Below are positions 1-64,000 of a DNA stretch of 64,000 bases, one piece after another (positions within the stretch are counted from its first letter, which is position 1; each line of letters begins with the position of its first letter). The notes below the pieces were generated by a model. It was not told the DNA's origin, searched no databases, and saw only the letters and a program-made list of their open reading frames with translations. Both the position numbers and the translations under genes were made by a program. This DNA is from Bilabrum cf. latius. Taxonomy: Eukaryota. The stretch spans positions 248,001 through 312,000 of the forward strand of contig OZ237773.1 of assembly GCA_965178125.1 (NCBI GenBank), given 5' to 3'.

Positions 1-3000
1 TGCAGCACAGGAGGAGACTCCAGTCGGTGGCCGACGCGCGCCTCCCCGACCTTGTCAGGGAACAGCTGGGGGCACAGACCCACGACACGCACAAGCGGAT
101 CCCAGTGGTGGTCGCAGAGTGCCCCGTGGACCGCAATATGTCCGTTGGGCCCATCACCTTCACATCACGGAGGGGCGCCAAGGACCTGTTCGGTCGTGAG
201 GCAGACGACCTCATGCAGGCGAAGCTGACGGATGAAATCCTCTGCGCGCCCGACGACCGGGCAAGGCTCGACCACGAGCTGCGAACGTTCGTCGAGCAGC
301 AGGTGAACCTCCTGATCGCGCCTCACCACGTGCAGGCAGGCGGGGGCATCCTCCGCACCTGCTTTCGGGTCAGGCGCCGGCTGAGGCACTCGACGCAGAG
401 GGGCTTCGGTTTTGCGCTCATGGACGGCGATGCGCCTGGCCTGGCCATGGTGCCAGAGCTGTAGGTGCCCACCGGCAACGACGGTACCAACGCCCCCGCC
501 TATGAGAGGGTGGAGATCCTGGGGCGGGACGGGCAGCCCCCCCGTGACCTAAACACGAGGGGCAGGAGCGTCAATGTGCCGGGGACGGCGGAGGTCAACG
601 ACGCCGAACAAACCGGTTTCCTGTGGGTGGAGATGACGGCGCACCTGGTCGCAAGGCGAGGGAACACAGCGTTCTCTCTCCACTTCTCGCTTCGGGAGGC
701 AGGCTCGGAGATATGCGGGTGGAGGCCCAAGCTCGGCATGGAGGTGGAGGACATCCGGAGGCGGTACGGGCTGGCCGACGGGCCGCATCTCGATGGGGGG
801 GGCTCCACCCCCGGTGGGGGCAGGAAGGGGTCTTCGCTCACCTCGGGGGCGAGGGGTGTTGCGGGAGGTTCCTCAGGGGATCGAGCCTCAACCCGGAGCG
901 GGGCCTCGGGAGCACCGGGGAAGGGTTCCGGTTCCGCAAGCGGCGCCGCGCAGAGCCAGGTCACCCGGGACCTGGAGGTTGCACGGCGCCGCGACGGAAC
1001 CACCGGCGGGCCTAGCAGGTACCACACCACGGACGGACACACGACCGCGCTCAGCTCACGCACCGCGAGCCTGGACGGCGGGACGGCGGCGGGCCCCGGC
1101 GGCGTCACCGCACTCGTCATACAGCCGGTACCCCTCGTGGATCCCGCCCACGACAAGGCACGAGCGGTTGCCAGCACCTTCGCGATCGCGTACACCCGCG
1201 CTGCGGTGGCCGCGGCCGAAGACTCCAGGGCTCGAGCCGCCGAGGCCATGGAGGAGGTTGCAACCGCGAGCGCGGAGATGGCCTGCTCCCTGGCCATGCT
1301 GCGAGAGGCCATGGAGGAGATCGATGGTGTGACGAGTGCGGGGGCGCGCCGCTCGGGGAACAAGCGCGACAAGACGGAGGTGATCATCCCCATCCCCCCC
1401 TCCTCCTCCTCGTCTTCCTCGGGCGGGCGGGCTTCCGCTCTGATCGAGAGCGACGCGGGGGATTCGTCCGAGTCCAGCGGAACCGTTCCCAGCGGCGCCG
1501 CGCAGGGGCTAGGCACGCGCAGGAAGCTCGAGTCGAGCACGGTGCCGGTGCAAAGGGGCAAGCTCGGGGCCGGTCGCAGGGGCCAGCAGAGGTCGTCTGC
1601 GTCTGCCAGCGGGTACACCGTGGGCAGCACGGCGGGGACCGGGCCCGGGTGGATCGTCCCGGGGGGAGGGTCCTCGGCTGCGGCTCGGCTGGCCGCCGCT
1701 GCGGACCAGGCTAGCCTGCGGAACCTCAGCTGGGCGCGCGGCGCCTACTGGGGGGTGCCCCTGGGGGGCGCCTCGGGGGGTCCCAAGTGGGACGGGGACA
1801 GGAGGCCCGAATGGAAGCGCCAGCGAACGTTCGCTCTGGGGTTGCTCGAGCCCTCGGAGTCCCCGAGCTGGGACTACGAAGACCCCACAGCGGGGGAGGG
1901 TACCCCGGGGGATGGCCTACAGGGGTCTGGAGGGGACGGGGCGCGGCCAAAGGTCGAGGTGGCGCTCGGGGGGATCGGATCTGCAAGCGAACGGAGCGGT
2001 TCCGTGCGCGGCAGTGCGATGCACCTGCACGCCAGGCGGACCCTGGAGCCGCAGCAGCGCGAAATGGTCCTCGGGATCCTGCGGAACCTCGCGCGCGGCG
2101 CCATGTCCGACCTCCCGCAGCTCTCCGAGTCGGCAGTCGACGTGGCCAGAGCCGTGATCGGGCACCGGGTGTCAGTTTCTGACTCCGTGCTGTCGGTGAT
2201 CCACGGGGCCAAGGCCGCCGCGCAGCACATGTCCCAGCCGACCACGAACTTCATCAGCGGGATGCACACAGTGGGCGACCAGTCCGTAGCGAGAGGTCTG
2301 CTGGACGGCGGGTTTAGGCTCGCCCCCGGTACGGGGGATGGGTCCAGCGGCGGTCGCGAGACGTTCGACATGGGCCGGTCGGTCGCGGAGGCCTCGTCCC
2401 AGGGGGGGGGCGGAGGAGGGGGAGGAGGCCCCGTGCTGGGGGTGCCTGGCGCCGACGGGTCGTACCAGTTCCACGTGACGGGGGGGGTGACCCAGAACAC
2501 GACGGGGGCAGCTTCCAACGCTCACGCGTCCCGGGCCGAGGCGGGCACGGGGGACGTGGACAGCAGGAGCGGCGTGCACCTGGATAGCATGGGTCTCGGG
2601 GCGAGTGGGCGGAACGTGGGGGGCGCCTCGGCGAGGTACGGCATCATGGGCAAGCGGATCTCCGCGCTGAGCAGGGCGCACGACGCACTCGTCACACTCG
2701 GTAGGGTGTGCGAGGTGGTTGGCGTGCAGGGGTTCCGGTTAGACGGCGGGTCGGGCGGGGCTGCGTTCGGGAGCGGCATGGGGGGGCTACCCCCCGGGGC
2801 GGGGGGTAAGGACGCTCACGGTCCCCCTGGACCCCTGGTGTCGGCGGGGGCACAGGGGTCATCCCCCTCTGCCGCCCTGGGGGGGGACTGGAGCGAGGGC
2901 GCGGGGGGCTCCGTGTCTGGGTTCAGCACGAGATCGGACAAGCCGGGCATCCCAGGGCCCAGCCTGCTGCTGCAGAGGAGCCCTTCCTCCGACGTGCGGG

Positions 3001-6000
3001 TGGGCGTGGACCAGCTCAGGTTCGGTGCCTGCGTGTCTCGCGGGGGGGGGCTGTCGGCACACGCGCCCCCTTCGGTCATGACGGCGCTGGCCGCCGGGGG
3101 CGCGGATGCGGTTGCAACCTCGGGTCGGCTCGCGGATGCCTTGGGCTTTGCTCTCCCCGGCCGCACGAGCTGGCAGGGGGTGCCCCCGTCCGTGCAGGCG
3201 ATCACGAGGGGACTGGCAGCTGCGGGGGATGGAGGTGCCATGCTGCTGCTGCAGGCCGCCGCCGCGTCCGCCGGTTTGGCCGCGCCGATCGGGGGTGGTC
3301 AAAGCGGGGAAGGAGTCACCTAGAGCGGACTGGCGGGCCGCGTGCCCGGCGGCATAGACACGACCGGGGGCAGTTCCACCGCGACCGAATCGACCGTCGG
3401 AGCGGCGGGCTTGCTCACTCCAGGCAACGCGGGTTTGAAACCCACTGTCCAGGAAAAGCTGAGGGCGAAAAAGAAAAAATTCCTGGCCGCGCTCGGTCTC
3501 GGTCCCGCGGCGCCCAGGGGAGGCGCGAAGTTCCGCTCCTCCGGCACCGGCGACTCTTCCAGCGGTGACACGCCTATCCGCCGGGATGCATCCGGATCCC
3601 AGGATCGAGTCCAGGCACTGCTAGCGATGGCCGAGCAGCGAGCAGGGGCAGCGATGGCTGCGGCTGGCCGGGCCCTGGAGGCAGCGGCAGCCGCAGACGC
3701 CTCCAGTGGTATGGCCTCATGGGCCTCATAGGCGGCGGGGGAGCGGGGGCGGCAGCTGGAGCTCGTGTGTTCCTCGGGATCCAGGTGGGGCGGGGGTCGG
3801 CGAGGGTGGGAAGTGGCGGCCGCGGCGGCGGCTGCTGCAGAGGCGCGTGACGGGACGGGATCCGGAGCCGAAACCACGGGGGCAGCGACAGGTGCATGTG
3901 CGGGGCTGCTCGCAGCGAACAGCCAGGGCATCGGTTCCGCAAGCAGCGGCAAGACCGGCAGCGCGGCGCCGGGCCCCTCCCAGGACGGGGAAGCCCTCCT
4001 GTTCCTCCCGCACTCGTCACCCATGCACGAGCTGCTGGGATCCACCACAAGCCCGCTCGAACTCCTCAGTTCCGGCTTCTTCGTGCCGGCTTCCCCCGGC
4101 GCCCGCCTGCGAGCCCTCGTGTGGACCCTGGGGATCGACCTGAGGTGCGACCCCCAGGGACTGCAAGACCTCAGCGCATACCCTCCCGAGACCGAGGACT
4201 ACCTCATGGACGCCGGCACAGCGCTGGGGATCGCACCTCCCCAAGCCGCCCTCTTCGCTGCGGGAGTGCTGGGCAGGGGCGCTGCAGCGGTTGCCGCTGG
4301 GTCCCAGGACTCCGAAGAGGGCGGTCACCCGGGTTCGATCCCGGGAGGAGGCAAGCGGGGGAGCGATTCCTCGGGGCAGGGGATCCAGCGGGGCGACAGC
4401 GGCGCGCCGGTGCGGCATATCTCTCGTGTGACGGGGGGAGAGAACACCGACGAGGAGCGTTCGCCCAGCCAGGCATCCCCAGGTGCGCTGCACGAGTGGT
4501 CCGCTTCGGCCTGCAGCACGCTGCTTCCCGTCCTGGTGGGGCTTTCGGAGGAATGGGCCAAGGTCAGGGCACAGCTGGCCGACGGTGGTGTGACGAGTGC
4601 AGGTGGCAGCAGCAGCAGCGTCGGCGGCAAGGGCGATTTCTTCGCCTCTGAGAAGAACACCGGCAGGCTCGTGGTTGTTCTCCGGGCGGTGCCTGTCACC
4701 ATCGGGTGGAAACCGCCTGCCCAGCAAGAGGAGGAGAGCGGGGGTGGCAGCAGCGGCGGCGGAACACCTGGGGCGGAACCATCCGGCGCCATCCCGTCCA
4801 CCTCGGACTCGCCCAGGCAGGTCTCCCTGCCCGGCGTGGCCACCCGACTCGAGGTGCTGGGCGGCAGCCGGGTCATGGCCGCCCTGCAGTCCCTCAAGCT
4901 GAGCCGGGAATCCGCGGAGAACCTCGGCGAAGGTTCTTCGGGAATCGGCCGCAAGGCCTCAATGGACGCGCAGGGCGGGCCGGCGAGGCAGCCTGCCTGG
5001 TCCCCGGAGATAAGGGGCCCTGCCTTGATGGGTGCGCAGTCGGGCGTGGCGGCGCTGTCGCTGACCGCAGCGGAGGAAAGCGCGAAGGGCATCGTCGCGG
5101 CGGCGGCGGCGTCCACCCTTGGATTGCGCGGCGCCGCGGCGGTTCCGCACGGGGTGCGGCTGGCGGGCGTTGTTCTCCAGGGGGAGGCGAAGAGCCTCAC
5201 GAGCGGGGGCAGAGGTGCGGGGCCCGGCCGGCCCATGCGTCCGCAGTGCAGCGTGCAGCTGCCCGATGGCGCCGCGGGACACGTCTTTGTGGTCATGCCC
5301 GCTCCCGCGATGCTCGGCCTGTCGGAGGGAACAAATGGGGGAGGCGGAGGGCAGTATCAGGGCGGTGGTGCGGAGGGGGGTCCCGAGGACGGGGACAAGG
5401 TGCAGCGCATGGCGGCGCAGGGGGAGGCCGAGGCATCTGCGGCGGGGGCAATTTCGGGAGCCCCGCCCGACGGGCCTCTCAGGTCGGGTGCCCTACCGGG
5501 TATCGTACCCCGGAGCGCCATTCCGCTCGCTTGGGGGGACGACTCTCTCGTGGCTCCGTGGTCCCGATCGGCCGGCACCGCGCTGGCTGCGGCGGAGGCC
5601 ATGGGCCTGCAGGAGGGCGGATTTCTGGCTCCGGATAGCCCGGCGGTGGCCGCTGCCATGGCCGCCTACCAGGCCGCGGTGGCGCAACATCTTGCGACCA
5701 CTACCGGAGCAGGTGCTTCGGCGGCGGCAGCGAGCTAGGGCATGTCGGAGGGGTGGATCCTGTAGGCCGCTCGATCGGCGGCGCTGCAGCTGCTTCCCTC
5801 TGGCTGGAGAGGTGCTGGGGCTGGCAGGCTGCTGCCCAGCGGACTCATGGTTCCGCTGCAAATGCGCGGCGCCTCTTCTCTGGCCCGGCACCTGGAGCCA
5901 CCCGCGGAGGCAGTGGCGCAAGCAGGAGCAGGTGGGTCCAAGCCTGCGCCGTACCCCGGGACGGATGCTGCCGCACCTGCCGCAGCCGCACCAGCGACCT

Positions 6001-6932
6001 CGGGGGTAGAGAAGGAGAAGCAATCGGAAGGCATCCAGGTCGAAGGCGCAGGGGCAGCGGCGGGCGAGGGCGCGGCGGGCGCGGGCCGCCGCCGAGTGAA
6101 GAAGCGCACCAAGGCAGAGAAGGAGGCGGCCAAGGCAGCGAGGCTGGCGGCGGAGCAGGGCCAGAAGCAGGGCCAAGATGGTCAGGGCCAGGGCACGGGT
6201 GCCGTTGGAGCTTCTGGCGAGATGCCAGTCTCGGCCCCCGCTCCTGCGCCTTCACCCGCACCCGCACCCAGCAAGGCCAAATCGGGGGCCGCTGGCAAAG
6301 ACAAGGCAAGAGACAAGGCAAAGGATAAGGATAAGGACAAGGGCAAGTCGAAGGGCCGCAACAGGGGCCCAGGGGAGCTGGAGGGGTTGCGTGTACTTTT
6401 GGTGGACGACGAGCGCGCCAACGTGCAGGTCGGCAGGCGCATGCTGAAGCGGATGGGCTGCACGGTCACCACTGCAGACGACGGCGCCGTGGCCCTCGAG
6501 ATGTTCGAGCAGATCCGCGAAGGCCGCAGAGGCGCGTTCGATGTGGTCCTTCTGGACATCTGGATGCCCACGGATGGCAGGCAGGTCTGCAGGCAGCTGC
6601 GGCAGGACGGCTTCACGCTGCCGATCCTCGCCATGACCACCATCAACAGCTAGTCCGACCTCATGGTCCTAAGGGAGGCGGGGTTCGACAAGGTGATCAG
6701 GAAACCGTTCGGAGCCGATGCGCTCCTGCAGGCCCTTAGGGATGTGACGAGGACGAGGACGGGGGCCGCTGGGGGAGGGGCAGAGAAGGCGGCGGCGACT
6801 CGTGCAGGTGCAGGTGCAGGTGCAGGCGCAGGGGCCGGTGCAGGGGCGGGTGCAGGGGCAGGGGCAGCCGGTGGCAAGAAACGGCGGGTAGTGAAGCGGA
6901 AGAAGAAAGAAAAGGACGAGGGGACGAGCTGA
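1..6932 (+). CDS. Large (>2,300 aa, 5'-truncated) Gly/Ala/Ser-rich protein with a C-terminal response-regulator receiver domain; 6 in-frame TAG
   Basis: ORFs 27, 465, 3342, 3765, 5847 and 6663 share one frame, separated only by TAG (462, 3321, 3729, 5736, 5763, 6651). The frame is open at the window start and ends at TGA 6930-6932. The receiver motifs LRVLLVDD...FDVVLLDIWMP...ILAMTTINS*SDLMVLREAGFDKVIRKPF span the TAG at 6651. Confidence 0.85.
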
Positions 6933-7114: not shown

Positions 7115-8185
7115 TCAATTTTCCGGGCCATTGCCGACGGCTGAATCCGCCAGACCTGTGGGTGGCACCTCTCCTTCCGGCGTGCTCGCCCCCGGGCCGC
7201 TCCCCACGTCGAGGACGGTTGCTGCCGTACTCGTCCCTGCCCCAGCCCCTGCCGCTGCACCCGTGGCAGCGCCTGATACTGCGGAATTACCAGCGGCAAG
7301 CTGGCCTCCCGCTTCCTCAGCAGACAGTCCCAGCGATATTAGAGCGGCGGCAAGCTCCTCCAAATGCTCGTCGGGAGGGAAACGGTACAAATCCACTGTC
7401 TTGCTCGCTCCAGCTGCGGTCGCAGCAGCCGCTTCTTCTGGTTCTAAACTGGTTTTCGCGGGAAATTCCGACTACATTCCAGTCGTAGAACTGGGTGCAG
7501 AAGACATTGCTGCAGCTGGGATACCATTGGATCCCGCCCCGACGGAGCTCTTGGACAATGGAGCAATTGCTTCGATTGTGCCGGCGTCGTTGACCTGGTC
7601 ATCATGCCCGTTGTGCGTCAGCAAAGCCCGTCGGATATTTGCAAAGTACTCAATATTTGGCCCGGAAGGACCCACGGACTTTGCGATAACCTTCGCAACC
7701 TCCAGAGCTTCCTTCCCACCGTCGTAATGTGGATTGTCGGCGGTGCCAACGAAGCAGACAGCCTTCCTATCAGTACCGTCTTCACAATGCACAATAACAT
7801 CGATCATATCGTATCCGGCCTTTTCTCGGTGCAGAAGCTTCTCCATAGAGGCCTCCACGTGGGAGCGGGGCACCCTGTAAACCACGCCTTGCGTGCGACA
7901 GGCAGGGTCGTCACGAACCATAGTTACGACAAACCCGGGTGACTCTTCAGTACCGCGATGATCTGGTGACCGCTGCCAAAACCGCCGGGTCCACCCGGTC
8001 ACATACCCCCAGTGGCGTTCGCTGAAGACCAAGTCAGGCTGCAGAATAGGACGGTGCGGTCCATTCACAGTGTAGGCCTATTTAAATCGCGACATTCTAT
8101 GAAAGGTAGACGCACAAATCCATCAATAATCTTCTCTTACTTTCCACACTAAACTCCCATAGCCAAACAGCCACAAGTCTGTCAT
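7115..8185 (-). CDS. chaC: ChaC-family glutathione-specific gamma-glutamylcyclotransferase; 2 exons (8185-8141, 8038-7115), 1 in-frame TAG
   Basis: Exon 1 MTDLWLFGYGSLVWK, a GTAAG...CTGCAG intron at 8140-8039, then PDLVFSERHWGYVTGWTRRFWQRSPDHRGTEESPGFVVT...LLHREKAGY...GPSGPNIEY, which are ChaC motifs. TAG at 7472-7474 is followed in frame by ORF 7115..7396, ending TGA. Confidence 0.9.
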
Positions 8186-8847: not shown

Positions 8848-11800
8848 ATGAGGTGACCTCTTGCTTGCTTTTAGGGTCCGGCCTTCTATCCCTATTTCCA
8901 CAGGTCGCTCCACCCAGCCTCGACGCTGCATGGCGTAGCTACTAATATGCCAGCATTGTAGCAGGCGCTAGAAGCGATGCCAATCAGTGAACTACCACAA
9001 GTTATTGATGCCAAGGATCCTGTGAGGGTTGGTACTGTTGTATAGAGTCTACTTTTGACCAGAGGGGTTGCAAGTTAATCCAGGAATATTATGTGCAAAT
9101 TTGTTTGTGTATGTGCTACCCAAGTTGTATTTTCTGATCTGCAGCATGGCAAAACGGCTCTCTGCTTGGCTGCCGCCCAGGGCCAAGATAAATGCTGTGA
9201 ATCTCTCCTGCGGAGAGGCGCAAGCGCCTAGGTGCCCGATTCAGTGAGGAAAACATGTTTTTTCCCCCCAAGCTTTATGTCCAATGTACAGATGCGTCTT
9301 GTGAGGAGTGCGCCTGACTCATCTTATCTAGCAGGATGGTGCGCTGCCGCTTCACTATGCCGCTGCATACGGACACAAGAACGTGGTCGAGAAGATGCTG
9401 AGCCTCTCCAACGCAGAGATTAATGCCGTTGCGCCTGTTAGTCACTTTACTTGCTGCAAGCCACCTTGATGATGCAGGGTGGGTCTTAACTTGGGTGTTT
9501 CGTCGACATCAGCGCCAATGTCCATCTCCGATGCTTATTTGTATCCTTTTCTGACAAAGAGTAAAAACTGACCCAAATGAATTGACAGCTCCAGTACCAC
9601 TGCAGACAGGCGCGACGGCTTTACACTGGGCCTGCTATAGCGGACATCTAGAGGTGGCCATCTGGCTGACTGGAAGTGGTGCCAGCGTGTCTTCGCAAGA
9701 ATTCGTGAGTGGCTAGTGGAGTCATTCACGAGTAAACCATATGCGATCTGTTTCCTACTCTGGAATAGTCCGGGGGTCACTCGCACTTCTAGCCTCTAAA
9801 GTCGCCCGACTATCCTCAATCTCGCAGGAGACTTTGAACACTCCGCTGCACTCTGCTGCTTACAATGGGCACGCAGCTGTTATCAAGCATCTATGTAGTT
9901 GCTCTGGTATCAATGTTGATGCGCCCGATGCGGTAAGATCGATTCATTTTGCGCCCCTATCCAGATTCTTTGTGTTTGGACATGCGGCGAATGCACCCGT
10001 GCGCGACACCTTACCGGCATGAAGGCACTGATAGCCAACAGACAACTGCGGGAAGATAGTTGCGTATTTCCTAATTGCCTTCTGAGATGGGATTGAGCGA
10101 GCACAGCTCTAGAGGTGCAGCTTCCGCGCGCAATAGTATGGATACTATCTGGGCAATCTCGCTGTCAACTGCGATGATTATCCAAAAGTGTAGCACAGCA
10201 CGCCTTCATCCGTTAATTTCGTTACCACAGGACGGGCAAACACCCCTTCACCATGCGTGTACCAACGGGCACGTCGCTGCCACCTTCCTGCTCCTGCAAG
10301 CCGGCGCCAGCCCTATGTCTAAAGAAAACAACGGCATGACCCCAGCCGAGGCGATCCCTGGGGATGCCTCCATGGCTGCGTTCAAGAACGCCATGACGGT
10401 GGGCGCCAGCTTCCCCCAGCTCTGCATGTACCTCATCATCAGGGACTGCGACGTGGACAACCTGACCAAGGGGGCCTACGAGATGTCCAGGGAACACCTC
10501 GACCGAGACCAGGTGGCGCTAGAGGCGTCCAAGCTTCTGGGCAACGAGGGCGTGCTTCATGACAAGAGCCGACGCACTGCCGCCTTGGAAGCCTTCTAGT
10601 ACGTGCAGCAGGGGACCAGGCGGGGTGCGAAAGGAGCAGAGGAAGAGGCTGAACGCCTTCGAAGGATGCTGCAGCAGGCACGAAACGACGCCGACAAGGC
10701 AAGAGACGAGGCCGAGCGCGCCAAAACCGAAGTGCGGGCAGCCGAGCACGAGCGGCGCGTGCTGCTGCAGGCCGGTCTCAAGCTGGCAGCGAGCGCGTTG
10801 CTGACTCGAGACGCCGAGAACGCGAAAGAGATGGCACGGGTGGGCACGGACCCAGCCGAGGTCATCAACGCGCGGGCCAAACGGGTCCTCCTCGCGGTCA
10901 GGGTGCGAGGCGCGCCCATGCGTCGCATCCGCGGCAACATGATGTCTCACCACCCGAGACTAAGGAGACTGTCACCGAGGCCCGGGGAGCCGTATGGAAT
11001 GCTCGACATCAGGTCCGTAGCAGAGCCCAACATCATCGAGCAGATCGCAGTACCGTCCGGCTGTTCCGGTTCTGGGTCTATCCTAAATCTCGTGAACGGC
11101 GGTGTTTCATCAAAGAGGCACGGTGGGGATCCGGCACACCTTGCGTTTCACCAGCACACGCGAGCCAGGCCCATCTACTGGGATGGGTCGGCGTCTGCTG
11201 CCACTGGCTCGACGGCAGCGCCGGAAGGCCAAGGGAGCAACGGCCTGGTGCTAGCCGTTGAGTCGCAGCCTATGGGTGACGTGTATGGATCTGATAGACC
11301 CGCCCGATCTGTGTGGCCGTTCGGCTGGCAGGGCGCACTAAAGGGAGCGTATCCCGGGGCTGATTCCCAGCACAACGATGCGATCTATCCGTTCGTGATC
11401 GGTGACAGACGCGATTCCCGAGGAAACGTGGTCCTGCACGGACACCCAAACGTGCTGACCGTGCACCACGCCTGGCTGGGCTCCACACAGCTGATGCTGC
11501 CTTGGCTCAACGAAATCATCAACAGCAGATGCACCACCTGGACTCTGATGGAGCGGTTCCCCACCACGCTGGAGGGGGCAGTGACTGCTTCGCTCACGAT
11601 AGGCAACCGGCAGGGATTCACGGGGAGACAGGCGGCGCTGTGGCTGCTGCAGGTGCTGCAGGGGCTGGAGCACGCCCGGTCCCGGGGGGTCGTGCACCGT
11701 GACGTAACGTCCGACAACGTCTTCATGTCAGCGGACGGACGGGCCGTGCTGGGCGACTGGGGGGAAGCCAGCTTCCTGTACAAGGGTGGATTGCGGCGCT

Positions 11801-16862: not shown

Positions 16863-16951
16863 ATGTGAGCCAGGTCGGGGATCTGTGACAGGGTCTAGCG
16901 TGTGTACCAGTCATTGCGGTTGATTTCACTTAGAGCAGATTCGATCCAATG

Positions 16952-18522: not shown

Positions 18523-19182
18523 TCGCCACTTGTCGCGAGAAAGTGCGAGCAAATCGGCGAAGGTCAGTGGTGGGGGTGTGATGACTATTCTGCAGGGCCA
18601 TTGGCAATGCACACGTGCTTGCAGCTTACTCGCTTGGGGTGGTAACAAGGTTTAAGAAGTGTAGACAGGCCAGCCGCAAGCGAGTACATCTGATCCAGCG
18701 GTGGGCATGCCGTGCTGGGCCATCATCGCCCCCTCCCTTCCCATCGACAGAATTGACAACCACAAGTTGAAGGCCGGACAGGGGCGGATGGGCCCAGCCG
18801 TAGGGGCACCTGGCTCCTCTGTACAGACTCGACAGGCCATCATGTACACATTGTGCGGCTGCATGCGACTACCTTCTCCTCAATGTTCAGCGACCGCCAA
18901 ATATGAAGATGATTGCGCGTAAATAAGCCAAAGTTGCGATCAATATATTTTCAGACCATATTTAGATCTGCTTACGAGGCCGTGGGACTCGATTGGGTCT
19001 TGGGTTTTGGGGATATAATTCGCGAGGGTACCAGCCTTTGTTTGTAGTCGAAGCCTCTTCGACAGGTTTAGGTGCAGCGCTGCGTTCACAAAGGACCCTT
19101 TTGCGTCTACGCAAACATTATTTCTTGCCCACCAGCGATTTTAAAATCACAAACATACCTGCTCAAGTTGCATTGATTTGCA

Positions 19183-20916: not shown

Positions 20917-20948
<32 letters not shown>

Positions 20949-26646: not shown

Positions 26647-26678
<32 letters not shown>

Positions 26679-51991: not shown

Positions 51992-52168
51992 GCCATGGTA
52001 GTAAACAGGTCAATTCTTTGTCATTTATGATGTGAGTCCACGCTAGCACGTGCACAACAGATGAACTTGCAGCTTGCCAGTGCCAAGTTGCCATTCATGA
52101 TTATGTCTTCATCTTCGCCAATTGCTTCTGTTGAAAATCGAATTCAATGGCAAAATCCCAACTTGCGT

Positions 52169-54091: not shown

Positions 54092-54266
54092 GCCATGGTC
54101 GTGGACAGTTCAATTCTTTGACATTTCTAATGTGATCCCACGCAAGCACATGCACAACACATGAGCTTGCCTTTTTCGTTCTGGTTCCGGGTTTTCAAGA
54201 TGTCTTCATCTTCGATAATTGCTTCTTCTGAAAAATGGAACACAATGGCATAATCATATTTTGTGT

Positions 54267-57023
54267 ATGACCGCAACTATATCCGATGCATATGATCCGG
54301 GTATATGTACGGTTATGGCTCGGCTACCGTGGCAAAAACGAATGTTGATGGCTTGTAAACAACCTCAACCCGACAAACTTGCAGAAGCCATCAACAGTGT
54401 CGGTCCTGAGAACGTGTGCCCATCACTGCTCGAGGAATGCTTCAAGCTGGCGTGCTCGATGAATCGACCACACATATTGGCATACTTGCAGGAGACCATG
54501 CCACCAGTTGGTCCAGCAGTTGTGGAAGAGTATCTTGAGTAGATGTGCTCGTCGAAGTACCCACCGTGGGATGCGATCCGATAGCTAGTTGTGAGCAAAG
54601 CGCACGGTTGCGATTTATTTAATGCTGCATGCAAATTTGCCATAGAGCGCAGCAATGCGGATGTCTTGGACATGCTGCTGTCTGAGAAAGATTGTTTTGC
54701 CAGCGTAAAACCATATGTTGTCCTGGCTTGGGCAGGGGATCGCTTGGGCCCCGAGAATGCCATACAGGCCGTCATCATTAGACAATTTCGGGATAGTCTG
54801 CGCGCTCCCACTCCAACTTTGTCCGAGCTGTTCAGATAGGCGTGCTCTGAAGGTCATGACGACTTGCTCGTCGAGCTTCTGCAGCTGCAGAACGAGGCGG
54901 GGGACTTTATGTTTCATCCTGGGCCCAAGCAGCTGTAGGAAGTATGCCAAAAAGGCCACTACAAGTGCGCGCTTGTGCTTCTCGCCCTCACCGGTGAATC
55001 TGCAATCGATGTGTCGGCCGACAACTGGCTGGCCTTCAGGCTTGCGGTCCTGCATCGCCGAGTGATGGTGGTGAAGGCACTGATGACGATCGGCAGGCAC
55101 CCGGTCGATGATCAGCCGTTTCTCGTCTAGCGGGAGCTTCTTCGGAACAGAGAACGAGCCAGAGCAGCCGAGGCTGCAGCCGCTCGAGTTCGAGCTAACG
55201 CTGAGGCTGAACGTAGATTGGCAAGGCTGCCAGCTGGCACCACTGCCACTGGGGCAGGAAGCGATAGGCTGCCAGCTGGCACCACTGCCACTGGGGCAGG
55301 AAGCGATAGGCTGCCAGCTGGCACCACTGCCACTGGGGCAGGAAGCGATAGGCTGCCAGCTGGCACCACCAGTGCAGCACGGATGCCCGCCAGGAAGCGG
55401 CCGCTGGTCCTACGCGGAAACCTATCGAAGACTGTCAATGCGAAGCCGAGCTACACAAAGTCATGTGCGAGTGGCATGTCCATTGCTACAGAGAGACATG
55501 GTGTGGGTATGCAGCGGGCCTCCGCTTCCAGCAAGCGCCAAGTCACCCGATCATTGCAAGTCCCCAGTCGCAGTCCTGGACCACGCCAAGCATAGCCAGG
55601 CTCAGGTCGATCAGTGAAGCTGGGGACCAGACCCGTGGAGACAGAGATGAAACTGCCCGTACTTGCAAGCTATCGAACCAGCACGGCGGTGAGGCGAAAC
55701 ACCAACGCGGCCAGCCGGGCCAGCCGGGCCAGCCGGGTCAAGCAGACCAAGCAGACCAAGCGGATTATCATAGCCACGCAAGCCACGCAGGCCAAGCAGA
55801 CTAAGCGGACTAAGCAGACCAAGCACGCAAAGCGGGTCAAGCAGGTCAAGCAGACCAAGCAGGCCTAGCAAGCAACAAAGGCCAAGCAAGCAACGAAGGC
55901 CACGCTTGCCAAGCGGACCAAGCTTGTCAAGCAGACCTCGGAGGCCACTCAGGCAACTTCGGACTAGCCCGAGCAGATGCCATCTACTTGCAAGCAGAAA
56001 CCCAGCATCGTGCCGCGCCAAGGGGCAAAGCAAGGAACCGGCCGGCGCAGCCAGGACAGTATCGGCCCTTCTCCTCGTGGAGTGGTTGAAGAAAACAAGA
56101 GCACTACGTAGCAGTAGCACCAGGACGTATCAGCAGGCAAGCTTCGATAGCAAGGAGACAACGGGCAAGTCGCACAGAGCTCGCCGCCCGGCCCCCGCCG
56201 TCGGAGTGGGGCTGAGTTAAGAGGAGCACATAGACGCACGCCAGAAGTACAGAAACAAGTATCACAGGCCCGGCAAAGCACAGAGAGGAAGGTGCAGCTA
56301 CCGTAGATACCGCTTGACGGTGAAGAGAGGATCCTCAAAGAGGGCGCCGCCATTGCAAACATGGTCTCGGCTGCGATCGCACGAATTCCGGTTTCGGCGC
56401 GGAGGCCTCTTCGCTGCATCCCACCGTACTGCGTGTATGAAGCCGTGGGCAAGGCCGCCTCCATGCGTCTGCCTCCGTACCGATACTGGCTGTACCGAGT
56501 GGAGAACTTCACACGAAGACAAAAAGCCATTCTCAGGCATCGCATGGTGTGGGACCCCTGGAAGAGGGTGCAAGAGCACAGCGGTATGCTCTAGGAATGC
56601 TGCCCAACCAATGACGCCCTCAAGCTGTCCAAGCGACTCAGACTGAGCCACAGGCCGTGTCAGGCGCAGTACATCCGGGTAGTCATGGACGTAGCGCGAT
56701 CGTTTGGAAATGCAGATTGCGTGGATGTGCTGCAGCGGCAGTGGAGAAGGGCCGTGGCAGTGGCACGCAGGCCGAGTAGGCGGCATTTGGTCGCTTGGAG
56801 GCAGGCCCTGTGCGCGCACAGAGATGCCAGCTTGCTGGGCAGGTGCTGCGAGGAGGGCAGGCCGCTGGAGCTGGGGAAGCGGCTGAGGCTGGGCAAGCTT
56901 GCGTGCAGTGCGGGGCGGCTTGTGGAGCTGGACGCGATGGCGAGGTAGGGCGGTCATGGCGAGTGCAGGGAGGTGCTTCACGCATTCATGCACTCTGGGT
57001 GTCTGGCTGCAGCAGGTCGGTGA
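54267..57023 (+). CDS. Ankyrin-like repeat protein, copy B2 (~918 aa) with an expanded low-complexity middle, multiple in-frame TAG
   Basis: Continuous frame through ORFs 54219, 54591, 55218, 55614, 56361 and 56685, with only TAG between them; ends TGA 57021-57023. Confidence 0.75.
55224..55369 (+). repeat. Coding 42-bp tandem repeat, ~3.5 copies (RLPAGTTATGAGSD); 9-bp KQT/RAS-type repeats follow at ~55710-55940
   Basis: Direct inspection of the sequence and of ORFs 55218 and 55614. Confidence 0.9.
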
Positions 57024-57191
57024 CAAACGTAGAAATGGATAGTAAATGGAGTTGCTCGTATCGCATTTGAATGAGCAGAATCCGATGATTGCTTGGCTTG
57101 CTCCTCACTTGTCACACGGCCACACTGGGATTTTCATCTTCACTATTTGTTACCTAGCGAAATCTAGCAAAGGCTATAATACAAATTGAAT

Positions 57192-59114
57192 ATGGGCGCA
57201 GCGCTATCTTGTGTATGCATTCCGGGTACACATACGAATGTATCCCGGCTGCCATGGCACGATTAGATGTTGGTGGCATGTAAACAACCTACAACTGACA
57301 AACTTGCAGAAGCCATCAACAGTGTTGGTCCTGAGAACGTGCGCCCATCACTGCTCGAGGAATGCTTCAAGCTGGCGTGCTCGATGAATCGACCGCACAT
57401 ATTGGCATACTTGCAGGAGAGCATGCCGCCAGTAGGTCCAGCAGTTGTGGAAGAGTGTCTTGAGTAGATGTGCTCGTCGAAGTACCCACCGTGGGATGCG
57501 ATCCGATAGCTAGCGATGAGAAATACCCATAACCACTTGGCTTTCAATATCTTATGCAAATACGCCATTGAGCGCAGCAATGCGGATGTCTTGGACATGC
57601 TGCTGGCAAACCGAGACAAAAATGACATGACCAAAGCTGCCCTAGCTTGGGCAGGAGATCGCTTTGGTCCTGACAATGCCATACAAGCCGTCATCATTAG
57701 TCATATGCGCTTGCATCGACCTAGTCCGCCTCCAACTTTGTCCGAGCTGATCATATAGTCGTGCACTGAAGGGAACGATGAAGCGCTGATCGAGCTTCTG
57801 CAGCTGCAGAACGAGGCAGGGGACTTCATGTTTCATCCTGGGCCCACGATATTGCAGGATGTATGTCAGAAAGGCCACTACAAGTGCGCGCTTGTGCTTC
57901 TCGCCCTCACCGGTGACTCCGCAATCGATGTGTCGGCCGACAACTGGCTGGCCTTCAGGCTTGCGGTCCTGCATCGCCGGCCGATGGTAGTGAAGGCATT
58001 GATGACGATCGGCAGGCACCCGGTCGACGATGGCCCGGTCTCAGATCAATCGTACTATGTCCAGATGAAACGAGCAAGAGCAGCCCGGGATGCAGCCGCT
58101 GCTCGAGCCCGCAAGGACACCGCCCGCGTTGCTCCGGCACAGCTGCTAGCCGCATTGTTTGGGAAGAAGTTTATACGCAACCGCGCAGGTTCAGCCCAAA
58201 TCCCTAGCAATTCTAAGAAGGGGAACGCTAGAGATGCTGGTCTATGGCGAGGGTACTCAGCAGGAAACAAAGAGCAATAGAAGAGTTGCTAGCCCAAGTC
58301 CTGGGGGCTTAGAGGACGCCGCCCCCCCGGGCGGGCCCGGAGACGGATACTGAGTGTTGTCTCGAATGATCGCAATGAATAGGAGTATTAGAAGCGCATA
58401 GAGACGGAGCGGATCGCTACAGAGGGCGCCGCCATTGCAAGCATGGTATCTTCAGCGACTCAACAAGCGCCGTCCCTGTCGCAAGGGCCTCTTCGCTGCA
58501 TCCCACCGTACTGCGTGTATGAAGCCGTGGACAAGGCCTCCTCCTTGCGAATGCCTCCATACCGATACTGGCTTCACCGGGTGGAGAACTTCACACGAAG
58601 ACAAAAAGCCATTCTCAGGCATCGCATGACCCTAGAGGAGATGAAACGGGTGCAGGAGCACAAGGCCATGCTTGCGGAGTGCTGCCCAACCGACGATGCC
58701 TTCAAACTGTCCAAGCGTCTTAGACTCAGCCACAGGCCGTGTCAGGCGACGTCCATTTCTGAGCTTGAGGATGTCGCGCGATCGTTTGGAAGTGCAGATT
58801 GCGTGGATGTGCTGCAGAGGCAGTGGAGAGGGGTTGTTGCAGTGGCACGCAGGCCGAGTAGGCGACATTTGGTCATTTGGAGGCAGGCCATGTGCGCGCA
58901 CAGGGATGCCAGCTTGCTGGGCAGGTGCTGCGTGGAGGGCAGGCCGCTGGAGCTGGGGAAGCGGCTGAGGCTGGGCAGGCTGGCGTGCAGTGCGGGGAGG
59001 ATGGTGGAGCTGGACGCAATGGCGAGGTAGGGCGGTCATGGCGAGTGCAGGGAGGTGCTTCACGCATCGTCACGGAAATCGAAGAACGCAGGCATGCAGC
59101 ATGATTAGAATTGA
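57192..59114 (+). CDS. Ankyrin-like repeat protein, copy B3 (~640 aa), multiple in-frame TAG
   Basis: ORFs 57267, 57516, 57828 and 58443 share one frame and are near-identical to B1 over most of their length; ends TGA 59112-59114. Confidence 0.75.
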
Positions 59115-59255
59115 AATTGACGCACATTGCTTTATCTGTGGCCCCAGTAAGCGGCTGCACATGTGCTGTGCACCAAGTGTGTGCAACTGCACGGAACGGC
59201 AGTGCCTTATTGGCGAGAAAATATACAACTAAAGCACGACACATAGTTCAATAGA

Positions 59256-60683
59256 ATGGCGTCAGTCTACGATGGCTTTGTGGTGTACTGTAGTAAGGGT
59301 GAGCTGGACAAGGTAGCATAGGTCGTTGCTAGCACAAGTGCTCGCGAACTGGAGGCCAGCCGTTTTCGCCTGGTATGTCGCGGATTCGTCAAAGCCTGCA
59401 ACAAAGGCCACTCGCTAGTCGTATCTGCATTAGCAACATACATGAATGTCATTCTGCCAGCTCATCCAAATGTCGTGCAAAGTGCGTTCGAACAGGCGTG
59501 CCAGCGAGGGCGAGCGAATGTCGTGAATCAACTGCTGGAGATAGACGCATGCCGCAAAGCATTGTCGATCTCACGCAACCAGAGTGCATGCCTAAAGGTT
59601 GCTTGCTCTGGCGGGTATAGCGAAGTACTGGACATGCTGCTGGCTCAAGAAGACATGCGCGAAGTTGCTGCGACCACGCTGCACGAATGCCTCTGCATCG
59701 CATGCCACCACGGGCGACTGTCCATCGTAAAGCAACTCATGTCTCTTGAAGGCGCCCAATACGTAAACATCCACGCCAAAAACGGCCTTGCGCTGTATCG
59801 GGCCGTCCGGCGGAATCACGAGGACGTGGTCCGCTGGCTGCTCGCACACGAGGCCAGACCTCCCGCGCAGCTGCCCACGGACGACCCCAGGACATTGCTT
59901 GGCATGGAAAAGGAAGGGTGCATGTCGGTTTTGTACCTATTTCGGTGGTTGCGATTTTGGCGGGCGGTATGCCCAGCGCAGTTGCTCGCTGATATCGTAG
60001 CAGCGAGAGCGCACCGTGTCAGCAGCCTGCAGCTGCCAGCAATTGAGCACTATTGCTTATGGTAGCACTGCAGGCCTATATATTTGACGCAGCACGCCAT
60101 TATATGCCGCGATGGGGCACTACTGGCTCGTATGAATGCGGCCACCATCGACAGATTCATACACCTGGGGGTAGACCGGCAAGTTTGGCGGTTCATCGTA
60201 TCGCTCGTTGGCATACGGCGCCCCGCATTTGATTCTACAATACCTCTTCAACTCGCGTACTACCATTGCTTGTATCCGTCCAGGCAGCCGATTGGATGGA
60301 TGCTGGATGGGCTTTGGCGAAGCGGACGGGAGCGCATGCCTTCCCGGCCAGACTATGATTCGATCAAGGAGACAGCTGGTATTGATCACGCGTACGATTT
60401 TTACGAGTAGTACAATGAGAATCAGGGAAGGAAGTCGCGGGTGCTGCAGTAGAGGCAGGCCCTGTGCGCGCACAGAGATGCCAGCCTGCTGGGCAGGTGC
60501 TGCGTGGAGGGCAGGCCGCTGGAGCTGGGGAAGCGGCTGAGGCTGGGCAAGCTTGCGTGCAGTGCGGGGAGGATGGTGGAGCTGGACGTGATGGCGAGGA
60601 GAGGCGGGCATGGCGAGTGCAGGGAGGCGGTGCAGCTAGAGCTGTGGAAGATGCATGCCAAGGTCCCGATGCATTTACATTGA
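59256..60683 (+). CDS. Ankyrin-repeat protein, divergent family member C (475 aa), 4 in-frame TAG
   Basis: FVKACNKGH, FEQACQRGRANVVNQLL, CLKVACSGGYSEVLDMLL, CLCIACHHGRLSIVKQLM and NIHAKNGLALYRAVRRNHEDVVRWLL, followed by the shared C-terminal cassette; ends TGA 60681-60683. Confidence 0.8.
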
Positions 60684-61175: not shown

Positions 61176-61227
61176 ACTATTCGATTTATCGAATTATATA
61201 AGTACAAATACGACAATGATCAATTTA

Positions 61228-64000
61228 TCAATCTTCCTCGTCATCCAGTTCAATCTCGTTCTCGTCCTCCGCCGCCTGCTTTCCGGACTGCGCTTTTTCG
61301 TTTCCATCTTCTGCGGCACCTGCTTCTTCTCTTCTGCTTCTCTTCACGTACCGAAGATCTTCCGCAGTAGCAGCATCCGCGTTCGACGTGGCGCTGGTGC
61401 CAACTGCTCCGGCCTACAAGGATTGTCCACCGTCGTGTGCATCGCTGCTCCCATCCGCTTCCGCGGGCACAGAACTGGCAGTGTCCCTGCCCCGCTTCTG
61501 TCCCAGAGCCGGCTCCGCTGGCGCCGCCCCGTCCCCTCCGTCCCCCTGCCCTTGCCCCTGCCCCTGCCCCATGGCCCTGACCTTCTCCCTGAGTTCCGGC
61601 TCCGAGTACCTCACCTGGGAGAACTGCGCGCCCATGGCCCTCCTCACGTGCTGCATCTCCGCGTACGTGTCGGGGTTCCCGTGCCTCCGCTCGAACTCGC
61701 GCCAAGAGTCCCAGTAGGTCCGGTGGGACGCCTCGCTGGGGTCGGCGAACTGAGCGCCGTGCCTCCACAGCGCCCTCGCGCGGTCGATCTCGCCCAGGGA
61801 AGCCTCCAGCACCGCGAACCGCATGGTGAGCGCGCGAGCATCCCCGTCCGGCAGGCCCTCGTCCGCCATCGCGATTTCCAAAACCGCACGCAACCTCGGT
61901 GCCCCGAACACCTCCTGGCCCCTCCGGACCCAGCGGTCGTACACCACGCGCTTGTCCCCGGTTGCAACCGCTCCCGCGGCCCTCTGGTACACCGCCATCT
62001 CCCTCCGGACCTGCCCGTGCCTCTTTTCCAGCTCGGCAAACACCAGCCACAGGGGCAGGGCGCTGGCGAGGCCTTGTTCCCCGCCCTCTCCCGCGGCAGC
62101 CACGGCCTCCTCGCAGATTTCCCTGGCCCTCTCCAGCTTGTCCAGGCGACCCCCAGGAGCACCCAGCACGTCGATCGAGGCACCAGCCGCTGCGGCCACG
62201 GCGGGCAACGACGACGAAGATGACGAAGATGATGATGAGGACGATGATGATGACGAAGCAGCACCGGTACCTGCCCCCCCGGCGCCCTTGGTGTGGCGCT
62301 TCACGAACGCCCCGATGTAAGCCAGCCACAGGTCCCTCTGGTGCGGCCAGCCGAACGCCGCCACCCCCCTCTCATACACACGGAAGGACTCCTCGAACTC
62401 GTTGTGCGCCTGCAGATACTCTGCGTGCTGCAGCACCATGGCCGCCGTGGCCACTCCCAGTCGAAGGCACAGCGCATGCGCCGCCTTGACCTCATCCACA
62501 GTGCCCAGGGACTCCTCCAGGTCGAGGAACAGCGCCCACACGCGGGGGTTCAGGTGCAGCCGGTCTCGCGCCGAGGTTTTGCCACCCCCGTGCAGTCGCC
62601 GGAGAACCGCCGCCGAAGGTTCCCTGACGGCCTCGGCGGCCACCGCCCGGGCCTCCTCCAGTCTCTCCTCCCTCACCTCCAGCTCTGCCAGGGAACAATG
62701 CACGGCGGCCAACTGGTCCACCCTCCTGAACGATACCTCAATGGCGCGCCGGAGCACCACCCTCGCCGATTCCGAGTCCCCGTTCCGCTCGTAGAGCCCT
62801 GCAAACGCGATCCACAGCTCTTCCAGCTTGCCAACCGCCTTGCCCGGGTCCACCGCCTGCGTGGCCTCCTGAAACGCAAGCACTGCCTGGTCCGGCCGTC
62901 CCTGCTTCTCGTACAGCTGTGCCCTGTCCAGCCACTCCTACACGCTCTGGGGGTTCTGCCTCAGCCGCACGGAGGACAGCAGCAGCGGCCGCCTGGCCAC
63001 GAGGACCTCGAGCCGCTCCATCCTGAGGGCGAGGTCCTCCTTCCCGGCCTCCAGCTGGGCCAGCTCTTTGCCCTCGATGTCGCTGGCCCCGCGGTCACCA
63101 GGCGAGTCCCCGCCCGCTGATGCCGATGAGGACGATGCAGACGCACCAGCTGCCTTGTTGGAGCTGTCCTATTCGTCCTCGTCCTCGTCCTCGTCCTCGT
63201 CGTCATCGGACACCTCTCCCGCAGCGAGCAGCAGGGTCTCCTCAAACCGCACGTAACTATCGTACACGGTCGCGAAATCCCTCACCGTCATGACGGCTTC
63301 GATCCCCTCCTCGTACACGTCTCTCGCCCGCTCGAACCTGCCCTGCCTCGAGTGCCAGTCCGCCAGCGCGCACCACAGCCGGCCCACCTCGTCCGAGAAC
63401 CTCCGGATGCCCGAGCGGAGCACCTGCTCCACATTCAGCGAGCGAACCTTCCCCGCGTGCTCCGACACGGTCGCGCACAGCCGCAGCCACAGCTCGTGGT
63501 GGGACCGCCCCCGCTTGCTGACGAAGGAGGGGTCGTCCACAGCGCGCGCCAGCACGAGGGCGCCCTCGTCCACGCGGCCAAACCGGAAGTAGTACTCGGC
63601 CAGCCGCTCGAGCTGCTTGGGGGCGAACTCGACGAACCTTCGCAGCAGCAGGGCACCCGACCTTGGGGGGACAGCCGGCTGCCGCCTCCAGTCGATGCCC
63701 AGGTGCCTGCGGACCGCCCGCTCGTCCCGTCTCAGTTGTTCCCTGGCCTCGGTGTCTTGCGCGGAGGCGCCCTTGGCTGCGGCGGAGGAGGACGATGAAG
63801 TTCCGCTGGATCGCGCGGCGCCGGTGCCGAGAAGTTCGCCGCGCTCGTCGACAGCACCCTCATCCTCGTCGTGGTCGTCATCGCCGCGCTCCGGTGGCAG
63901 CTCAAGGGACGGTACCTCGTAGGAACCGTCCTCCAGCATGCGAGGGGGGTCGGATGTTTCTACGAAGCGCACGACCGCTGGCCAGACGTGGTCGTGCTGG
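61228..64000 (-). CDS. SYF1: Pre-mRNA splicing factor SYF1/XAB2 (HAT repeats), 5'-truncated by the window; 3 in-frame TAG
   Basis: RSGIRRFSDEVGRLWCALAD...FERARDVYEEG...TVRDFATVYDSY, LRQNPQSV*EW, LFLDLEESLG, FEESFRVYERGV, KLERAREICEEA, LGEIDRARA, FERRHGNPDTYAEM and acidic tail ENEIELDDEED. TAG at 63169, 62938 and 61414; ends TGA (61228-61230) immediately followed by TAA. Confidence 0.93.

What the first reader, a model, noticed from the sequence alone, without database searches (positions are those of the whole stretch)
1..64000. Non-standard nuclear genetic code: UAG is a sense codon throughout the window
Seen: in 11 of 12 distinct intact genes the ORF fragments lie in one frame and are separated only by TAG. 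TAG falls inside folded, conserved domains: the receiver domain (6651), between the GH32 catalytic motifs (14668, 15094), an ankyrin repeat (9229) and the essential splicing factor SYF1 (62938, 63169, and 61414 upstream of its acidic tail). An 18.4-kb exon carries dozens of TAG and, where read, no TAA or TGA. Established: random pseudogene decay gives all three stops plus frameshifts, and SYF1 is an essential spliceosome component. Inference: UAG has been reassigned genome-wide in a GC-rich, intron-containing protist whose sequence composition does not look like a typical AT-rich ciliate, possibly an undescribed independent reassignment. I cannot identify the organism from this window.
Basis: partly seen in the sequence, partly recalled or inferred. 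Interest (0 to 1): 0.96.

Follow-up and report, generated by a model that had tools for sequence, protein, structure and literature searches.

The report
Stop codon TAG read as sense
In this GC-rich stretch of an unidentified microbial eukaryote every sizeable gene carries the stop codon TAG inside its reading frame, so the organism reads TAG as an amino acid (most likely glutamine) and keeps only TGA and TAA as stops, a rare kind of genetic-code change.

Summary
In 13 long frames (17,263 codons) there are 126 in-frame TAG and no internal TAA or TGA; 12 frames end in TGA and 1 in TAA. One 18.4-kb frame holds 57 TAG. Reading TGA or TAA through instead gives no frame above 977 aa, against 6,142 aa for TAG.

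TAG takes up exactly one aligned column inside the GH32, SYF1 and receiver domains. The three SYF1 TAGs are present, with no differing letters, in contigs of four runs from four studies.

TAA is not reassigned. About 39 in-frame TAA would be expected from the CAA/CAG ratio, and none is seen.

The amino acid is most likely glutamine, but this is not proven. Two fragments of a 72-78% identical relative end exactly at window CAG and CAA codons, and one window TAG aligns to their Q.

The organism is unidentified. It is eukaryotic, has introns and carries a spliceosome gene. Its SYF1 falls outside green plants (AU p 0.022).

This code type (UAG sense, UAA and UGA stops) is already known from a few lineages. 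I read this as a probable new member of that kind, in an unusual GC-rich genome. No genome was held, so tRNA(CUA) and eRF1 could not be examined.

The parts
3..6932 (+). C-terminal 2,309 codons of a gene that ends in a response-regulator receiver domain. It has 6 in-frame TAG, one at 6651 inside the domain, and ends in TGA.
7115..8122 (-). ChaC-like gamma-glutamylcyclotransferase exon with 2 in-frame TAG outside the Pfam match. Ends in TGA.
9229..9231 (+). TAG in an ankyrin-repeat exon, at the position where the repeat consensus has N. The GT..AG intron 9244-9334 follows, and the next exon starts at 9335.
   Evidence: the splice sites were read by eye
10075..14067 (+). Ankyrin plus protein-kinase gene with 6 in-frame TAG. 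Ends in TAA.
14440..16431 (+). Secreted GH32 (plant-type fructofuranosidase-like) gene in a single frame. It has 5 in-frame TAG, including 14530, 14668 and 15094. Ends in TGA.
19177..22653 (+). Gene without a Pfam family, copy 1 of a 5.73-kb tandem duplication, with 3 in-frame TAG. A 200-N gap lies at 22296-22495.
24907..28737 (+). Copy 2 of the same gene, with 4 in-frame TAG. Ends in TGA.
29827..48255 (-). Single 6,142-codon frame with 57 in-frame TAG and no TAA or TGA before the terminal TGA. It contains two 97% identical internal repeats of about 820 aa.
51122..60683 (+). Five tandem paralogues: 51122-51991, 52031-54091, 54219-57023, 57180-59114 and 59151-60683. They carry 2, 9, 14, 10 and 5 in-frame TAG. 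Many TAG positions are shared between copies. All end in TGA.
61228..63999 (-). Pre-mRNA-splicing factor SYF1 (its N-terminus lies off the window). In-frame TAG at 63169, 62938 and 61414. The conserved acidic C-terminal tail lies after the last TAG. Ends in TGA.

Best explanation
The window is nuclear DNA of an unidentified, GC-rich, intron-poor eukaryote. In its genetic code UAG is a sense codon, while UGA (the main stop) and UAA still terminate.

The encoded amino acid is most probably glutamine. The inferred mechanism, which is not shown here, is a tRNA with anticodon CUA, most simply a tRNA-Gln(CUG) with one anticodon change. It would be paired with a release factor eRF1 that no longer recognises UAG but keeps UAA and UGA.

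The trait appears to be shared with at least one related, unnamed organism in public read sets. Its homologue of the giant gene is also broken into short ORFs.
For: SHOWN
1. Only TAG occurs in frame: 126 TAG against 0 TAA and 0 TGA in 17,263 codons of 13 frames, which end in 12 TGA and 1 TAA. TAA and TGA are common in the off-frames. Reading TGA or TAA through gives no frame above 977 aa, against 6,142 aa for TAG.
2. Translation must pass through TAG.
   - The GH32 C-terminal domain lies after all five TAGs.
   - The receiver domain's conserved K-P-F end lies after its TAG.
   - The SYF1 acidic tail, aligned to the tail of chain 8xi2_I, lies after the TAG at 61414.
   - In every printed alignment the TAG fills one column, with no gap.
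3. TAG positions are conserved between paralogues, in 25 TAG:TAG pairs.
4. The TAGs are not an assembly error. Contigs of X1, X5, X6 and X7 (four studies) cover the SYF1 gene (pieces spanning 61146-63200) with 0 other letters and no indels.
5. TAA is not sense. The counts are CAG 409, CAA 151, TAG 105 and TAA 1, the last being terminal. About 39 TAA would be expected if UAR were read alike.
6. The DNA is eukaryotic and nuclear: SYF1, ankyrin, kinase and GH32 genes and a GT..AG intron at 9244-9334.

FOR GLUTAMINE
- Of the 10 hits to a 1,200-aa part of the giant protein, the two closest are P0215 (78% identical) and P0216 (72%). Each is recorded on a Logan contig of 2,384 nt, probably the same one. 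They stop exactly opposite window CAG and CAA. Window TAG at segment position 366 aligns to Q in P0216.
- One paralogue has TAG where two others have CAG, in a well-aligned stretch.
- The GH32 TAG at 14530 aligns to Q in the best solved homologue, 3ugf.
- The TAG count per segment follows the local Gln count better than any other residue at segment sizes 150 and 250 codons. Permutations reached the observed value 13 of 300 and 1 of 300 times.
Against: - The amino acid rests on few sites. Window TAG at segment position 453 aligns to W in P0216, and a 97% identical internal repeat has TGG where the other has TAG.
- In a BLOSUM sum over 23 aligned partners, Arg scores 7.2 against 5.7 for Gln. Seven of the 23 partners are R.
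- The Gln-tracking test fails at segment size 100 (Q ranks sixth; permutations reach it 101 of 300 times).
- SYF1 columns are uninformative (H 93 of 120, and D/E 105 of 120). The receiver TAG aligns to E in 4 of 5 printed alignments.
- The stop codons of the relative's fragments were not seen as DNA, so calling them TAG is inferred.
- No tRNA(CUA) lies in the window.
- No eRF1 gene, confirmed RNA or peptide data were available.
- 'Genome-wide' is extrapolated from 64 kb.
Confidence: 0.8

Rival explanations
1. UAG is a sense codon but stands for a residue other than Gln. Candidates are Arg, Trp, Tyr and Glu, or Ser as reported for the green alga Scotinosphaera.
For: - Arg tops the BLOSUM sum over 23 partners (R 7.2, Q 5.7).
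- There are two close TAG/TGG pairs and one TAG/TAT pair.
- The receiver TAG aligns to E in 4 of 5 alignments, and one SYF1 TAG sits in a D/E run.
- UAG to Ser with UAA and UGA as stops is in print for Scotinosphaera (PMC8271138, passages).
Against: - The closest relative gives Q three times: two ORF ends plus one aligned Q.
- Ser scores -8.3, Leu -11.1, Trp -12.6 and Glu -2.9.
- Asn is rejected. N is followed by x-S/T in 40 of 106 cases in the extracellular part of the giant protein, TAG in 3 of 46.
- Recalled knowledge, not from a call: ArgRS and TrpRS read the anticodon, so a CUA tRNA charged with Arg or Trp is mechanistically harder.
- A green-algal position for SYF1 is disfavoured (AU p 0.022).
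Confidence: 0.17
2. The TAGs are removed or changed before translation, by tiny in-frame introns or by U-to-C RNA editing that restores CAG. The code itself would then be standard.
For: No run on record as RNA was available, so unedited transcripts were not shown.
Against: - Each TAG occupies a single aligned residue column with conserved sequence directly on both sides. An intron would therefore have to be exactly 3 nt long.
- 126 sites would need site-specific editing, while TAA and TGA never need it.
- No contig of four runs shows another letter at the SYF1 TAGs. Two of these runs are guessed, not shown, to be RNA.
Confidence: 0.02
3. The genes are decaying pseudogenes, or the TAGs are sequencing or assembly errors.
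For: None found beyond the bare presence of stop codons.
Against: - Decay would give all three stops and frameshifts. Here there are 0 TAA, 0 TGA and no frame change over 17,263 codons.
- TAG sites are conserved between paralogues.
- The sequence is identical in contigs of four studies.
Confidence: 0.01

Closest known systems
UAG-only reassignment to glutamine with UAA kept as stop: the fornicate Iotanema spirale (Panek et al. 2017, PMC5304391), Protocruzia tuzeti and some phyllopharyngean ciliates (McGowan et al. 2024, PMC11687900; passages read)
   Same: UAG is sense while UAA and UGA terminate, and the probable meaning is Gln. UAG has evolved apart from UAA, which is the rare pattern.
   Different: Those organisms are a metamonad and ciliates. 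This window is 55-71% GC, intron-poor, and its SYF1 groups with unnamed environmental sequences. Gln is not proven here, and tRNA and eRF1 were not seen.
Scotinosphaera sp. NIES-154 (Ulvophyceae): TAG read as Ser, TAA and TGA as stops (Li et al. 2021, PMC8271138; passages read)
   Same: It has the same set of stop codons, sits in a non-ciliate lineage, and GH32 in this window is most like plant enzymes.
   Different: No window TAG sits in a Ser-dominated column, and Ser scores -8.3. The SYF1 tree puts the window outside a 100%-supported green-plant clade, and the AU test gives p 0.022.
Uncultured rhizarian exLh: UAG read as Leu (PMC5304391)
   Same: UAG alone is reassigned in a non-ciliate protist.
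   Different: Leu scores -11.1 here.
UAR to Gln codes (NCBI table 6: many ciliates, Dasycladales and other ulvophytes, Hexamita, Streblomastix, Amoeboaphelidium; listed in PMC11687900)
   Same: A stop codon has been reassigned to Gln.
   Different: TAA is not a sense codon here: 0 internal TAA against about 39 expected, and one gene ends in TAA.

Membership tests
Nuclear code with UAG = Gln and UAA/UGA = stop (Iotanema / Protocruzia type) | In-frame UAG in conserved, evidently functional genes | tested here: met
   126 in-frame TAG in 13 frames, including the SYF1, GH32 and receiver domains
Nuclear code with UAG = Gln and UAA/UGA = stop (Iotanema / Protocruzia type) | UAA and UGA remain terminators | tested here: met
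   0 internal TAA or TGA; frames end in 12 TGA and 1 TAA. About 39 TAA would be expected from CAA/CAG if UAA were sense.
Nuclear code with UAG = Gln and UAA/UGA = stop (Iotanema / Protocruzia type) | UAG aligns with Gln in homologues | tested here: inconclusive
   In favour: the closest relative gives 1 Q and 1 W at two TAG sites, and two of its ORF ends fall on window Q codons. A paralogue pair shows TAG/CAG, and GH32 aligns Q in 3ugf. Against: Arg scores highest in the pooled sum.
Nuclear code with UAG = Gln and UAA/UGA = stop (Iotanema / Protocruzia type) | A tRNA-Gln with anticodon CUA | not testable with these tools
   Only three tRNA-Ala(CGC) genes lie in the window, and no genome is held.
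Nuclear code with UAG = Gln and UAA/UGA = stop (Iotanema / Protocruzia type) | eRF1 N-domain altered so that UAG is not recognised | not testable with these tools
   eRF1 is not in the window, and no genome is held.
Scotinosphaera-type code (UAG = Ser) | UAG at conserved Ser positions | tested here: not met
   S is 2 of 120 and 0 of 120 at the two aligned SYF1 columns, and 1 of 12 partners in relatives. The pooled score is -8.3. There are few sites.
Scotinosphaera-type code (UAG = Ser) | Green-algal (ulvophyte) organism | tested here: not met
   SYF1 lies outside the green-plant clade, and the AU test of a joint clade gives p 0.022. This is a single gene on a long branch (1.19), so the result is weak.
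UAR = Gln (NCBI table 6) | UAA also used as a sense codon | tested here: not met
Codes with all stops ambiguous (Condylostoma, Blastocrithidia, Amoebophrya) | UGA and/or UAA also in frame | tested here: not met
   0 internal TGA or TAA in 17,263 codons

The most novel reading that the evidence does not exclude
An as yet undescribed, deep-branching, GC-rich and intron-poor protist lineage has independently reassigned UAG alone. Its ChaC is nearest to oomycetes among named hits, and its SYF1 is nearest to unnamed environmental sequences. The reassignment would be shared by a small clade of environmental relatives, while a more distant relative (locus L001) keeps what looks like the standard code. 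This would be a UAG capture in a genome whose base composition should favour, not deplete, TAG. It would bear on the idea that stop-codon reassignment follows codon disappearance under AT pressure. If the residue turned out to be Arg or Trp, it would be a code never yet reported for a nucleus.
Probability: 0.4. Interest if true: 0.85.

Novelty: new member of a known kind. Interest (0 to 1): 0.72.

Why it matters
Nuclear codes in which UAG and UAA have different meanings are known from only a handful of lineages (PMC11687900 and PMC5304391, passages). Each independent case is a natural experiment on how eRF1 can lose one stop codon and keep the other two.

A case in a 55-71% GC genome is unusual. 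TAG is here as frequent in frame as out of frame, whereas most recoded eukaryotes are AT-rich.

There is also a practical consequence. Any standard-code annotation of this assembly will shatter its genes. The database fragments P0215-P0224 look like exactly that. Completeness scores and protein databases for this organism and its relatives will be wrong until code 15-like translation is used.

Tried and rejected
- Whole genome: none is held, so tRNA(CUA), eRF1, 18S and a Codetta-style run were impossible.
- Earlier findings: nothing on this genome or look-alikes. The 9 hits for 'UAG reassignment' concern phages, bacteria and a mitochondrion.
- RNA: no RNA holder was listed. X6 and X7 are only guessed to be RNA. 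Both have no cover at 60565-61026, where X1 and X5 go on. I draw nothing from that hole. The joints seen sit in low-complexity GAC/GAG repeats and are not introns.
- GH32 homologue search returned 1 protein only, so no column statistics were possible.
- SYF1 columns at the TAGs are uninformative.
- Paralogue codon pairs gave mixed partners: CAG, TAT and TGG for single-base differences, and D, R, H, M, A and others beyond that.
- A naive-Bayes model of neighbouring residues gave no clear class (L 2.0, M -0.8, V -1.2 ...). Neighbour enrichment only argues weakly against A, G, K and W.
- The Asn idea came from the ankyrin and GH32 consensus. The sequon test rejected it.
- Relatives' DNA:
  - The metagenome scan with P0004 gave 34 loci. 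None is closer than 42% to the window's SYF1.
  - L001 (GC 0.61) has eight long standard-code ORFs with Pfam domains.
  - Scans of genome contigs and viral contigs with SYF1 found no relative.
I dropped that step.
- Taxon: one member of P0005's cluster is labelled Symbiodinium sp. KB8. It sits on a 3.2-kb contig with an intronless gene, and I do not trust it as a dinoflagellate sequence.
- Literature: seven searches found no paper on a GC-rich non-ciliate with this code. Supplements were closed, and subscription journals are not searched.


Full report
OBSERVATION

The window is 55-71% GC in 4-kb bins. Under the standard code the longest stop-to-stop frame is 952 aa. With TAG read through, frames of 6142, 2309, 1330, 1276, 1158, 934 and 923 aa appear.

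In 13 frames delimited only by TAA or TGA there are 17,263 codons, 126 in-frame TAG and no internal TAA or TGA. Twelve frames end in TGA and one in TAA. By contrast, the two off-frames of the 18.4-kb gene hold 16-32 TAA and 106-122 TGA, and TAG is about as common there (48-79) as in frame (57).

The longest frames are then 977 and 952 aa. The effect is therefore specific to TAG and is not a by-product of high GC.

ARE THE TAGS REAL AND TRANSLATED?

Contigs of four runs from four studies (X1, X5, X6, X7) lie on the SYF1 gene with no other letters and no indels. This covers the TAGs at 61414, 62938 and 63169. These runs may all be one strain, so this rules out an assembly error but is not evidence of independent evolution.

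In alignments to solved structures each TAG fills exactly one column, flanked by conserved residues:
- GH32: columns 95 and 141 of the 14248 frame.
- SYF1: 'NPQSV-X-EW' against human 'NPHHVHEW'.
- Receiver domain: 'TTINS-X-SD' against 'TAFSEESN'.

Conserved sequence continues after the TAGs. The GH32 C-domain, the receiver K-P-F end and the acidic SYF1 tail all lie downstream of a TAG. Between paralogues, 25 aligned pairs are TAG:TAG. Pseudogene decay, sequencing error and introns do not fit these facts.

RNA editing of 126 sites cannot be formally excluded, because no run is on record as RNA.

WHICH STOPS REMAIN?

In the non-redundant gene set CAG is 409, CAA 151, TAG 105 and TAA 1, the last being a terminal codon. 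If UAA shared the meaning of UAG, about 39 in-frame TAA would be expected. None is seen. The change therefore affects UAG alone.

WHICH AMINO ACID?

The window holds few TAGs in conserved columns.
- SYF1 gives H 93 of 120 at one site and D/E 105 of 120 at another. The first column is variable in the nearest clade.
- GH32 gives Q in the best structure (3ugf) and Y in two others, and N, V or I at the second site.
- The receiver gives E in 4 of 5 printed alignments.
- The ankyrin TAG sits at the consensus N position.

Asn is rejected. In the extracellular part of the giant protein N is followed by x-S/T in 40 of 106 cases, TAG in 3 of 46.

The most telling data come from a full HMMER scan with 1,200 residues of the giant protein. 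It gave 10 hits, all short ORFs from Logan contigs. The two closest, P0215 (78% identical) and P0216 (72%), are each recorded on a contig of 2,384 nt, probably the same one.
- P0215 ends opposite a window CAG.
- P0216 ends opposite a window CAA.
- One window TAG aligns to Q in P0216, and another to W.

Gln is about 4% of residues (560 of 14,188 in the gene set). Three Q coincidences at 72-78% identity are therefore unlikely by chance, if the relative's breaks are the reassigned codon. That last point is inferred, because I could not see the DNA.

Further support for Gln:
- One paralogue has TAG where two have CAG, in a well-aligned stretch.
- The TAG count per segment follows the local Gln count better than any other residue at segment sizes 150 and 250 codons. 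Permutations reach the observed fit 13 of 300 and 1 of 300 times. At size 100 the test fails: Q is sixth, and permutations reach it 101 of 300 times.

Against Gln, a BLOSUM sum over 23 aligned partners puts Arg (7.2) ahead of Gln (5.7). Lys scores 2.3, Ser -8.3, Leu -11.1 and Trp -12.6. My reading of the many R partners is mutational: CGG to CAG or TGG to TAG by transitions in a CpG-rich genome. This is inference.

I put Gln at roughly 0.7-0.8 of the probability that UAG is sense.

WHAT ORGANISM?

It is eukaryotic and nuclear. The window holds SYF1, ankyrin, kinase, GH32 and ChaC genes and a 91-nt GT..AG intron at 9244-9334 that joins two ankyrin half-repeats in register. Most genes here are single frames.

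SYF1:
- The best hits are only 40-45% identical.
- In a 66-row tree the window sits on a long branch (1.19). It groups with two unnamed sequences (SH-aLRT 98) and lies outside a fully supported green-plant clade.
- Forcing it together with green plants costs 47.6 log-likelihood units (AU p 0.022).
- This is one gene on a long branch, so the result is weak.

ChaC:
- The best named hits are oomycetes at 38-43%.
- An unnamed ENA/JGI cluster is 74% identical over half the query, and 78% (35 of 45) and 49% (103 of 210) over two aligned stretches of P0212.

The contig of the nearest SYF1 relative (L001, GC 0.61) carries eight long standard-code ORFs with good Pfam domains. That lineage therefore looks standard.

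I cannot name the organism. A heterotrophic stramenopile is a guess, not a finding.

COMPARISON WITH WHAT IS KNOWN

I read passages of three papers. UAG alone is reassigned in:
- a rhizarian (to Leu) and Iotanema spirale (to Gln) (PMC5304391);
- Protocruzia and several phyllopharyngean ciliates (to Gln or Leu) (PMC11687900);
- Scotinosphaera (to Ser) (PMC8271138).

The window fits the Iotanema-type code best. The Scotinosphaera type is disfavoured both by the residue evidence and by the tree. The usual UAR = Gln code is excluded by the absence of TAA.

Seven full-text searches found no report of such a code in a GC-rich non-ciliate beyond these. Subscription journals and supplements were not searched.

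VERDICT

The kind of code change is known. This is probably a new, independently evolved member in an unusual genomic setting. Its amino acid is probable but not proven, and its molecular machinery (tRNA, eRF1) is untested.

Noticed in passing
window 16500-28100: A 5,730-bp tandem duplication. Offset 5,730 gives 95.6% identical letters over 5.8 kb, and the shortfall includes a 200-N scaffold gap at 22296-22495. The two gene copies are 100% identical over 1,039 aligned codons. This may be a real recent duplication or an assembly artefact at the gap.
   Followed up: partly
window 8294-8366 (+), 14281-14353 (+), 61103-61175 (-): Three tRNA-Ala(CGC) genes with the same Rfam score (64.8 bits). The first two share flanking sequence: the same peptide-like reading 'RIAQLVECLLRMQIVQGSIPCVSKLF' appears in the frames over both. 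This suggests a dispersed tRNA-carrying repeat.
   Followed up: no
window 50132-60683 (+): A tandem family of at least six genes or gene remnants. They share a Cys-rich C-terminal module of about 60 aa ('RQAL.AHRDASLLGRCC.EGRPLELGKRLRLG.LACSAGR.VEL..MAR.GGHG.CREV') with no Pfam family. One member has ankyrin repeats.
   Followed up: partly
window 29827-48255 (-): A 6,142-aa single-frame protein. It has weak RCC1-like repeats near the N-terminus, two 97% identical 820-aa internal repeats, a Cys-rich stretch and a multi-pass membrane C-terminus with a weak TRP-channel match. Homologues in public data appear only as short fragments.
   Followed up: partly
window 14440-16431 (+): The GH32 enzyme is much closer to plant fructosyltransferases and invertases (E 4e-32 to 3e-26) than to fungal or bacterial ones (E 7e-13 or weaker) among solved structures. 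This is odd for an organism whose SYF1 is not plant-like, and horizontal transfer is possible.
   Followed up: no
window 62182-62412 and 63106-63336: Depth spikes of up to 336,700 in the laid contigs, with many loose ends and false joints, at acidic and serine low-complexity (GAC/GAG/TCG) repeats of SYF1. These are mapping artefacts of simple repeats.
   Followed up: no
L001 1-22226: The contig of the nearest SYF1 relative is intron-poor and 61% GC. It carries an AGC kinase, zuotin, ribophorin I, ATG13, SYF1 and an ankyrin protein as uninterrupted standard-code ORFs. It comes from an unnamed environmental eukaryote.
   Followed up: partly
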